NCBI RefSeq assembly: GCF_009914755.1 | Contig: NC_060936.1 | From: the human T2T-CHM13v2.0 reference genome, Homo sapiens | DNA: 64,000 bases | Strand: one strand, 5' to 3' | Notes under the pieces: generated by a model | Database searches by the model: none | Told to the model about the DNA's origin: nothing | Seen by the model: the letters and a program-made list of their open reading frames with translations, nothing else | In this document: piece by piece, positions 38,564-40,919 of the stretch | Layout: each line of letters starts with the position of its first letter | Position numbering within the stretch: the first letter of the stretch is position 1 | Made by a program: the position numbers and the translations under genes

Positions 38564-39369
38564 TCATATCACTATTCCATTTGTAGGTATATCATAGTTT
38601 ATTTAGCCGATCCTGCATTAGAAGACATTTTATGTCTCAGACTTTTCCTATTATAAATAATGCTGTGATAAACATCTGCACTATTTCAAATGCAAATGAC
38701 AAATCCAGCTTGAAAAATAACTAGCCATCCCTGGACCAATAAATGATGATTGATCAAGGGAGTGGAAACTCTCATGGATCCAGTTTGGGTCAGGTGTCCA
38801 GCCAATCAGTGGTGGCCAGGGGGCCTGGGATGGGTGAGATGATATCATTTGAACCATGATGAGATGGGAGTTTCTACAAAGGTGAGTGTGCATGGGAGTT
38901 GTTCTGGATAGAATTCAAAAAGCATTTACTGCAACACTCTCATATATCAATCATTGCATTTCTAATTATTTCTTAGCATAAATTCCCATGTGAAATCACT
39001 GGGTCAAATAATATTAATATTTTGACAGCTTTTACCAAGCTTTTTGCCAATCTTTATTCTCACCTGCTGAGTATTAGAAAATCATTCCATGTCCCTTCTC
39101 CATCTCAGCATTTACTACTATTTTTTAAAAAAATGAAGTATTTGAAAAGTGGAAAATGGTTTCTCATTGTTGTTTTATTTTTTAAAAAACCAGTAAGCCT
39201 GAATCCAGGTAAAAATTGGCAGTAACCAACATATGCATTAATAGTCCACTCATTGGGGTATTTAACATGGTGGAACTAAAAGGTTCTGGCCTTCAAGCCA
39301 CCAGAGGCCTGATAGGCAGATATGTCCCCTTACAACAGCAGGAACGGATGTTTCAAAACACAGCCTCAG

Positions 39370-39374
39370 TAACC

Positions 39375-39411
<37 letters not shown>

Positions 39412-40101
39412 CTTTAAGTTCTAGGGTACATGTGCACAACATGCAGGTTTGTTACATATGTATACATGTGTCATGTTGGTGTGCTGCACACATTAACTAG
39501 TCATTTACATTAGGTATATCTCCTAATGCTATCCCTCCCCTCTCCCCCGACCCCTCAACAGGCCCCAGTGTGTGATGCTTCCCTTCCTGTGTCCAAGTGT
39601 TCTCATTGTTCAATTCCCACCTATGAGTGAGAACATGTGGTGTTTGGTTTTTTGTCCTTGCGATAGTTTGCTGAGAATGATGGTTTCCAGCTTCATCTAG
39701 CAATGGAGTAGAGGTAAAATATACTTGTAATAACTTATTTTTTAACCCTATACTGTAATGTATTATATTTTACAAAAACAGTGACTGTGGCACATCAGAA
39801 TCTATATAACAGTCACGTGGTTTCTAACGATCAAGAAATACACTGGATGATGAATGTCAAGAAGCCATTGCTTCCACGTGAAATATTTTACCACCACAAG
39901 GCTTTGAAATGCAAAATAAATCACAGGTACTATTTCTAAAGATATCTGCCATCAGAACCATCAGTCCATTGGATTCTGAACTGCAATCACAGCTCTTCTT
40001 GGACTTTATATAATTTGACAACAGTGTACAGTTCTAAACAGGTATAAATAAACAATATCAAAGCAAAAAAAAAAAAAAACCAAAAAAACAAAAAAACAAG
40101 C
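39370..40101. mobile_element. Composite L1 insertion: inverted L1PA4/5 3' end (39375-39697, -) plus transduced unique DNA (39698-40064, +) plus poly-A
   Basis: TSD acacagcctcag at 39358-39369 and 40102-40113; AATAAA 40047-40052; A-tail from 40065; (TTA)n L1 tail 39375-39410. Confidence 0.85.
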
Positions 40102-40919
40102 ACACAGCCTCAGAGCCTAGACTTTTTCTTAGAACCTTCCAGCTTGAATTGTTGGAGAGCAGAAGAAGAAAGATTGAATTCCTTTGCCTCAGATTCTCAG
40201 CCAAAAGGAGACACCAAGGACACTCTTGGGAAGCCTGTCCTGGTGCACTGGAAAGAAAATCTCAGCCTCAGATTTGGATTTCTTTTGTGTCCTCCATGCA
40301 CCACAATGGCTTGACTGTCAGCTGCAAGAGAACATGCCTGGGGCCAGAGAGTAGCAGCTGATGGTGGAAACCATGCTCAGCCCATCTCCTCCCTCCCAGA
40401 TGCTGGTTTAGGTGTCAGTGTGATCTGTGGTGTCACCTTCCATTCCAGGCACCTCTAGCAATGGCTCCTGAGTCCCTAACACCTGGACATTGTTCCCAGG
40501 CTAGCTGCTGAGATGATTGAATTCCTTAGGAGAGAAAAATGACCCTTTATTCCAAAAGGGGAAAAGGAGGAGGAGAGAGTTTCATCTTTAAAACTTCTTC
40601 TTAAATTGTGTGGAGGAGCTCCATCCTTCATCTTACCATGACACCCCACCAGAGCAAAGCGGTTGGGTCTGCTTTTTTTCTGGGGCCATGATCCTGATTC
40701 CTCTATTCCATTTGGGCAAGTCATGTGACCTCTGTGCCTCCAAATTTGTAAAATGAGGAGAATAATGGGTATCACTATCTCTTGGGTGTCATTAATGCTC
40801 TTATGAGTAGATTTATACAGTGCTTGCTTCTAATAGGTAACAGAGCATTGAAGAACTAAGATGTACTGCAATGTGTCTTTTAAAAAATTTATTTTTTATT
40901 TTTAAATTAAGATGGGGTA

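What the first reader, a model, noticed from the sequence alone, without database searches (positions are those of the whole stretch)
39355..40113. Twin-primed L1PA insertion carrying a ~370-bp 3' transduction
Seen: one TSD (acacagcctcag, preceded by an endonuclease-like TTTC/AAAA site) brackets, in order, 5 nt (taacc), an antisense L1PA 3' end starting from its own (TAA)n tail, 367 bp of apparently non-repetitive sense sequence, AATAAA and a poly-A tail. Established: twin priming places the inverted, more 5' RNA segment next to the left TSD, and read-through of the L1 poly-A signal yields 3' transductions. Inference: the inversion breakpoint fell just past the source L1's tail, so 39698-40064 is a barcode for the source element.
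Basis: partly seen in the sequence, partly recalled or inferred. Interest (0 to 1): 0.7.

Follow-up and report, generated by a model that had tools for sequence, protein, structure and literature searches.

The report
Fossil barcode of a vanished L1
This is an old, partly flipped jumping-gene (L1) copy on chromosome 12 that carries a piece of the CAMK2D gene region from chromosome 4; no L1 sits at that spot in this genome, so the copy likely records the exact address of a once-active parent L1 that was later lost from our lineage.

Summary
But the left junction matches chr4 at 14 of 15 bases, 247 bp upstream of that piece (chance about 1e-4 per kb). The match covers the 5 nt, four tail A's and six TSD bases, which is the expected second-primer site, and it starts in an endonuclease-like A run. 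Best reading (0.8): twin-primed insertion of a ~617-nt 3' transduction, with 238 nt lost at the inversion, from an ape-age L1PA that once sat there and did not persist, most likely never fixed. Main rival (0.13): a template switch between a chr4 RNA and an L1 RNA. Twin priming, transduction and 'parentless' sources are all described, so this is a new, unusually well-resolved member of a known kind.

The parts
39351..39358 (+). L1 endonuclease-like target site, TTTC|AAAA (bottom strand TTTT/GA); likely nick 39354|39355
   Evidence: sequence; TTTT/G is one of the EN motifs listed in PMC12016303
39358..39369 (+). left TSD (12 bp exact; likely 15 bp from 39355). Its last 6 nt are the inferred second primer
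   Evidence: 5 of 6 nt complementary to C4:117,063,896-901
39370..39378 (-). inverted 9 nt (5 nt plus 4 A's) identical to C4:117,063,887-895, the inferred start of the source's 3' flank
39375..39410 (-). L1 tail, now (TAA)11 plus A4
39411..39697 (-). inverted L1PA 3' end, 287 bp: last 28 codons of ORF2 (39696-39613, stop 39612-39610) and 3' UTR
39697..39698 (.). inversion junction, blunt, no microhomology; 238 nt of the inferred RNA are missing here
39698..40064 (+). non-inverted transduced piece, paralog of C4:117,064,134-117,064,501 (CAMK2D intron, antisense to the gene)
40047..40052 (+). AATAAA used for polyadenylation; on chr4 it is 14 nt before the cut, with two upstream TGTA and a downstream T/GT-rich run
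40065..40101 (+). poly(A) tail, 37 nt, 84% A, not present on chr4
40102..40113 (+). right TSD

Best explanation
The insertion joins an inverted L1 3' end to two pieces of one CAMK2D intron on chr4 that holds no L1 in this genome, and it likely arose by twin priming on a read-through RNA from a parent L1PA that once sat at about C4:117,063,885 and was likely lost without ever fixing. Steps. (1) Inferred: a full-length L1PA inserted at the A run at that site, antisense to CAMK2D. (2) Inferred from shown signals: transcription ran through the L1's own signal and two further AATAAA hexamers and was cut 14 nt after a third, about 617 nt downstream. (3) Shown hallmarks, inferred process: the bottom-strand nick on chr12 primed on the poly(A) and copied 367 nt. 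(4) Shown complementarity, inferred process: the top-strand end paired with the RNA about 11 nt past the L1 tail and copied 5 nt, the tail and 287 nt of L1 in reverse. (5) Shown: the two copies are joined bluntly and 238 nt between them are missing. (6) Inferred: the daughter spread in an ape ancestor while the parent allele was lost by drift or selection; precise deletion between its TSDs is a less likely way to the same empty site. No function is proposed; it is most likely a neutral fossil.
For: One paralog of the 367 bp in the genome (2 matches including self). The junction 15-mer matches chr4 at 14 of 15, on the same strand and 247 bp upstream; it is the only hit at <=1 mismatch in 61 kb on both strands. 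Genome background is 458 hits in 2 x 3.12 Gb, or 7e-5 expected per kb of one strand. With a 23-nt query fixed by the anatomy, 0 of 1000 dinucleotide shuffles reached the observed score, and 1 of 120 real tiles did. The match splits as twin priming predicts: 9 copied nt plus 6 TSD nt pairing 5 of 6. Both halves look equally old: L1 piece 9 of 287 from the majority base of 29 relatives, transduction 18 of 366 between two lineages; Fisher p = 0.64 against half of that. Chr4 has the poly(A) signal but no tail or TSD, so it is the donor. [quoted passage not shown] Gaps over 20 bp between the two cDNAs are not unusual: 46% (132 of 287) lay within 20 bp (PMC12016303). Parentless transductions were traced to dimorphic parents in dogs.
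Against: The parent itself is not seen: no L1PA 3' end in 61 kb, and no other primate genome could be searched. No sibling insertion from the same source was found. The endonuclease-like context of the chr4 A run is weak evidence: 199 of 795 runs of four or more A's in the region follow TT or TC. A 5-of-6 primer match alone is common (3 of 612 positions in the inferred RNA). There is no microhomology at the inversion junction. The 15-mer was first noticed by eye, so its chance figure is post hoc.
Confidence: 0.8

Rival explanations
1. Two-RNA chimera, no L1 ever on chr4. An antisense CAMK2D-intron RNA was mobilised in trans and twin-primed. The second cDNA copied 5 nt and the A6 run, then slipped onto the poly(A) tail of an L1 RNA and went on into its 3' end.
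For: Needs no lost element and fits every base seen, including the 14-of-15 match. Template switching is a proposed route to L1 chimeras, and one row of Table S5 of PMC13174262 with a similar layout is annotated as a switch to LINE-1. No siblings were found.
Against: It needs two rarer things together: an antisense RNA with no evident promoter upstream in 49 kb, and a switch at exactly the A run. L1's preference for its own RNA (established knowledge) favours a single RNA. None of the 15 listed of 77 papers names a human CAMK2D antisense RNA in its title or abstract start (weak).
Confidence: 0.13
2. The parent still exists in people: it is polymorphic, or was deleted only on the CHM13 haplotype.
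For: Dog parentless transductions resolve this way; human non-reference sources exist.
Against: The two copies differ by 4.9%, far older than ordinary human polymorphism (established knowledge). No L1 remnant or duplicated target site is seen on chr4.
Confidence: 0.04
3. Two unrelated events or RNAs at one site: a retrocopy of chr4 RNA plus an independent antisense L1, the 5 nt being untemplated.
For: The L1 piece has its own tail and the junction is blunt; antisense chimeras from two RNAs are proposed in PMC13174262.
Against: The 5 nt and their neighbours map to chr4 next to the transduced piece. One TSD encloses everything, the L1 piece has no TSD of its own, and the ages agree.
Confidence: 0.03

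Closest known systems
Twin-primed (5'-inverted) L1 insertions (Ostertag and Kazazian 2001, not held, recalled; described in PMC12016303 and 10.1101/2024.08.27.596794, passages read)
   Same: Inverted segment beside the 5' TSD, internal priming by spurious complementarity, internal deletion at the inversion point
   Different: The inversion point lies in the transduced flank, a few bases past the L1 tail, so the L1 is wholly in the inverted arm
Partnered L1 3' transductions with 5' inversion (PMC13009371, passages read)
   Same: Unique downstream sequence ending after a poly(A) signal; 21-46% inversion rates per source; breakpoints can fall in transduced sequence
   Different: Those are recent L1HS events with living sources; this one is ape-age and its source is absent
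'Parentless' 3' transductions (dog genomes; PMC13141329 and PMC13103737, passages read)
   Same: The donor locus has no adjacent L1
   Different: In dogs the parent still segregates. Here it is likely extinct, and the inverted junction places its insertion point to within a few bases and keeps 287 bp of its 3' end
L1 chimeras with unique RNAs found by TiMEstamp (Law and Burns; preprint sections 19 and 24, PMC13174262 passages and supplement searches)
   Same: One TSD around L1 plus unique sequence; a lost ancestral intronic L1PA5 is offered there as one model for the MAP3K13 chimera
   Different: Those are mostly sense 5' exon fusions. This locus was not found in their tables, and here the empty parent site can be pointed to

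Membership tests
L1 TPRT insertion | Target-site duplication | tested here: met
   12 bp exact, 13 of 15 extended
L1 TPRT insertion | Endonuclease motif at the nick | tested here: met
   TTTT/GA on the bottom strand at 39354|39355
L1 TPRT insertion | Non-templated poly(A) tail | tested here: met
   37 nt, 84% A; chr4 continues with other sequence (an A7 run begins 5 nt later)
L1 TPRT insertion | Empty site with one TSD copy in outgroups | not testable with these tools
   no relatives held; the flanks have no paralog spanning the site
Twin-primed 5' inversion | More 5' RNA segment inverted beside the 5' TSD | tested here: met
Twin-primed 5' inversion | Complementarity of the TSD end to the RNA at the second priming site | tested here: met
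   5 of 6 nt, directly after the 9 copied nt
Twin-primed 5' inversion | Deletion or duplication between the two cDNAs | tested here: met
   238-nt deletion
Twin-primed 5' inversion | Microcomplementarity at the cDNA-cDNA junction (common, not obligatory) | tested here: not met
   0 nt
Partnered 3' transduction | Unique segment maps to another locus and ends shortly after a poly(A) signal | tested here: met
   C4:117,064,134-501; AATAAA 14 nt before the cut
Partnered 3' transduction | Source L1 present directly upstream of the donor | tested here: not met
   no L1PA 3' end in 61 kb
Parentless 3' transduction | Donor locus lacks an adjacent L1 | tested here: met
Parentless 3' transduction | Parent recovered in another haplotype or species | not testable with these tools
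   only CHM13 could be searched
L1PA4/L1PA5 subfamily | Diagnostic 3' positions and divergence | tested here: inconclusive
   3.1% from the majority base of 29 close copies, which lie at 1.4-3.9%; no Dfam or Repbase library was available, and the subfamily name is recalled
Processed pseudogene of an mRNA | Segment maps to the exons or 3' UTR of a gene in sense | tested here: not met
   unspliced, 3.5 kb past CAMK2D coding exon 2, antisense to the gene; an unannotated antisense RNA was not tested

The most novel reading that the evidence does not exclude
No L1 ever sat in CAMK2D: during twin priming the second cDNA began on a cellular antisense RNA and jumped in trans, through a six-A run, onto an L1 poly(A) tail. 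That would be a two-RNA form of twin priming that forges fake 'parentless transductions', so some inferred lost source L1s would never have existed.
Probability: 0.13. Interest if true: 0.6.

Novelty: new member of a known kind. Interest (0 to 1): 0.36.

Why it matters
If right, a few bases at an inversion junction give the near-exact address, orientation and 287 bp of sequence of a once-active L1 that this human genome no longer carries. Collected genome-wide and checked against complete ape assemblies, such insertions would let one count what share of ancient source L1s never fixed, and tell lost parents from template-switch chimeras. The single case has no sign of function: no gene or RefSeq element is annotated over it.

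Tried and rejected
Parent L1 upstream of the donor: none in C4:117,015,001-117,076,000 with the 287-bp probe at E<1e-3. A second probe set of 29 related loci gave, in the first 60 rows printed, only matches of 67-90% identity, mostly about 300 bp and Alu-like; the remaining rows were not printed. Siblings: the 367 bp gave 2 matches (self and chr4); 621 bp and 196 bp of upstream chr4 gave 1 match each (self); a 20-mer at <=2 mismatches gave 5 hits against 17 for the reversed control, and none of the 4 non-source hits follows an L1 tail; an L1-end plus flank pattern gave 3 hits, self and 2 without L1. These searches skip common words, so absence is not proof. A paralog spanning the chr12 empty site: none. 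Structured RNA: no Rfam match. The (TAA)n tail as a barcode: rejected (4 of 29). Priming on the genomic A7 run instead of a real tail: disfavoured, since the 5 nt before that run are absent from chr12. Not done: the position of CAMK2D exon 3 was not checked, so 'intron 2' is recalled; earlier scan findings were not available; three classic papers (Ostertag and Kazazian 2001, Szak 2003, Pickeral 2000) were not held.

Full report
Observation. A 12-bp direct repeat at 39358-39369 and 40102-40113 is exact and occurs 2 times in the window, counting both strands; extended to the likely nick it matches at 13 of 15. Inside it lie 5 nt, a tail of TTA x 11.3, 287 bp of antisense L1, 367 unique bases and a 37-nt tail that is 84% A. 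The L1 identity was tested: 39696-39613 on the minus strand encodes 28 residues that match residues 1248-1275, the C-terminus, of human L1 ORF2p (E 4.7e-9). A genome search with the piece gave 2675 candidates, of which 40 were scored, 39 of them other copies at 95-96%.

The donor. The 367 bp have one other match in the genome, C4:117,064,134-117,064,501 on the + strand, with 18 substitutions in 366 aligned bases and 2 gaps. Two coding exons lie on the minus strand 3.5 and 5.2 kb higher. One is identical over 31 residues to CaMKII delta and the other begins with Met. The donor therefore lies in the CAMK2D intron after coding exon 2, antisense to the gene; that this is intron 2 throughout is recalled. 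On chr4 the match ends 14 nt after AATAAA, with two TGTA motifs upstream and a T/GT-rich run downstream, and there is no tail or TSD. Chr4 is thus the donor and the tail was likely added by polyadenylation. Two earlier AATAAA hexamers were bypassed.

No L1PA 3' end was found in the 61 kb from 117,015,001 to 117,076,000 (direct reading). The bases just upstream of the 367-bp match are not the predicted 5 nt.

The left junction maps to chr4. The reverse complement of 39364-39378 matches C4:117,063,887-901 at 14 of 15, on the same strand as the donor piece and 247 bp upstream of it. It is the only hit at one mismatch or fewer in 61 kb on both strands. Genome-wide the 15-mer has 458 such hits, and its reversed control 503, which is 7e-5 expected per kb of one strand or 7e-4 per 10 kb. 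I noticed the match by eye, so I repeated the test with a 23-nt query fixed by the anatomy (TSD, 5 nt and first tail bases): score 12 in the kilobase upstream; 0 of 1000 dinucleotide shuffles reached 12; 1 of 120 real 1-kb tiles scored 12, as expected for the tile holding the site, and 3 scored 11. The match divides as twin priming requires: 9 nt copied into the insertion, then 6 nt that belong to the TSD and pair 5 of 6 with the RNA. Upstream of it chr4 has a run of six A's after TC, the same endonuclease-type context as the chr12 target. That context alone is weak, as 199 of 795 A runs in the region have TT or TC before them.

Mechanism. The RNA implied by the insertion reads: L1 3' end, tail, chr4 flank from the A run onward for about 617 nt, poly(A). 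The simplest source is an L1 inserted at that A run. Priming on the poly(A) copied 367 nt; the second strand primed just past the L1 tail and copied back into L1; 238 nt between them, including a CA microsatellite, were lost; the joint is blunt. The junctions and signals are shown; the parent and the order of steps are inferred. The two halves agree in age: 9 of 287 differences from the majority base of 29 of the 39 related copies (those lie at 1.4-3.9%), against 18 of 366 over two lineages (Fisher p = 0.64). Law and Burns place L1PA4 and most L1PA5 after the ape-monkey split (preprint section 19); an age near 20 million years is recalled. An allele this old is unlikely to be polymorphic today, so loss before fixation is the likeliest fate (inference); precise deletion between TSDs would look the same.

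Against this reading. The parent is unseen and no sibling was found: searches gave only self or donor; one search gave 5 hits against 17 control hits; one search gave self and 2 non-L1 hits. A two-RNA template switch at the A run fits the same bases and keeps 0.13. It needs an antisense RNA for which I saw no promoter: the only CpG-rich windows in 61 kb are around the CAMK2D start, beyond the 3' end of that RNA. Non-CpG promoters were not assessed.

Literature. PMC12016303 (passages and section 8): inversions in 18.4% of germline L1s; 132 of 287 had the two cDNAs within 20 bp. 10.1101/2024.08.27.596794 (passages): internal priming by spurious complementarity, frequent internal deletions, and switching within one RNA. 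PMC13009371 (passages): inverted partnered transductions, with breakpoints also in transduced sequence. PMC13141329 and PMC13103737 (passages): parentless transductions in dogs, 3 of 27 next to an L1, one resolved by a dimorphic parent. PMC9311842 (passages): human sources include non-reference L1s. Law and Burns (abstract, passages, sections 19 and 24; published version passages): a lost ancestral L1PA5 or RNA recombination for the MAP3K13 chimera. This locus was not found in print: 0 papers hold CAMK2D, LINE-1, transduction and retrotransposition together, and the Law and Burns supplements hold no CAMK2D and no row at my estimated hg38 position, which rests on a recalled offset (one large PDF could not be read). 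Ostertag and Kazazian 2001, Szak 2003 and Pickeral 2000 were not held and were seen only as reference entries; Szak 2003 surveyed human transductions and could list this or similar cases.

Verdict. A real, single L1-driven insertion; twin-primed and transducing with high confidence; parent absent from CHM13 and most likely lost (0.8). Every component is a known kind. What is unusual is how precisely the inversion junction marks the empty parent site. Novelty: new member of a known kind. Interest 0.36.

Noticed in passing
L002:1271-1306 (C4:117,063,904-939): A CA microsatellite begins a few bases after the inferred second-primer site and falls inside the 238 nt lost at the inversion.
   Followed up: no
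C4:117,064,042 and 117,064,351 (the second is window about 39915-39920): Two AATAAA hexamers inside the inferred read-through RNA were bypassed; the one used has upstream TGTA motifs and a downstream T/GT-rich run.
   Followed up: partly
PMC13174262 Table S5 row 14 (hg38 chr9:75,950,195-75,950,902): An insertion with one TSD, a T-rich end, antisense unique RNA and an L1 piece is annotated as a template switch; it could be re-examined as a twin-primed transduction from a lost parent.
   Followed up: no
window 40186-40195 and 40257-40274: Short partial copies of the TSD end recur 80 and 158 bp to the right of the insertion; probably chance.
   Followed up: no
window 38993-39033 and L048 (C6:101,798,513-553): A 41-bp, 90% match in the left flank (E 1.1e-5); probably a fragment of an old repeat.
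   Followed up: no
C4:117,015,001-117,076,000: This 61-kb stretch around the CAMK2D start holds several Alu-like repeats but no L1PA 3' end.
   Followed up: partly
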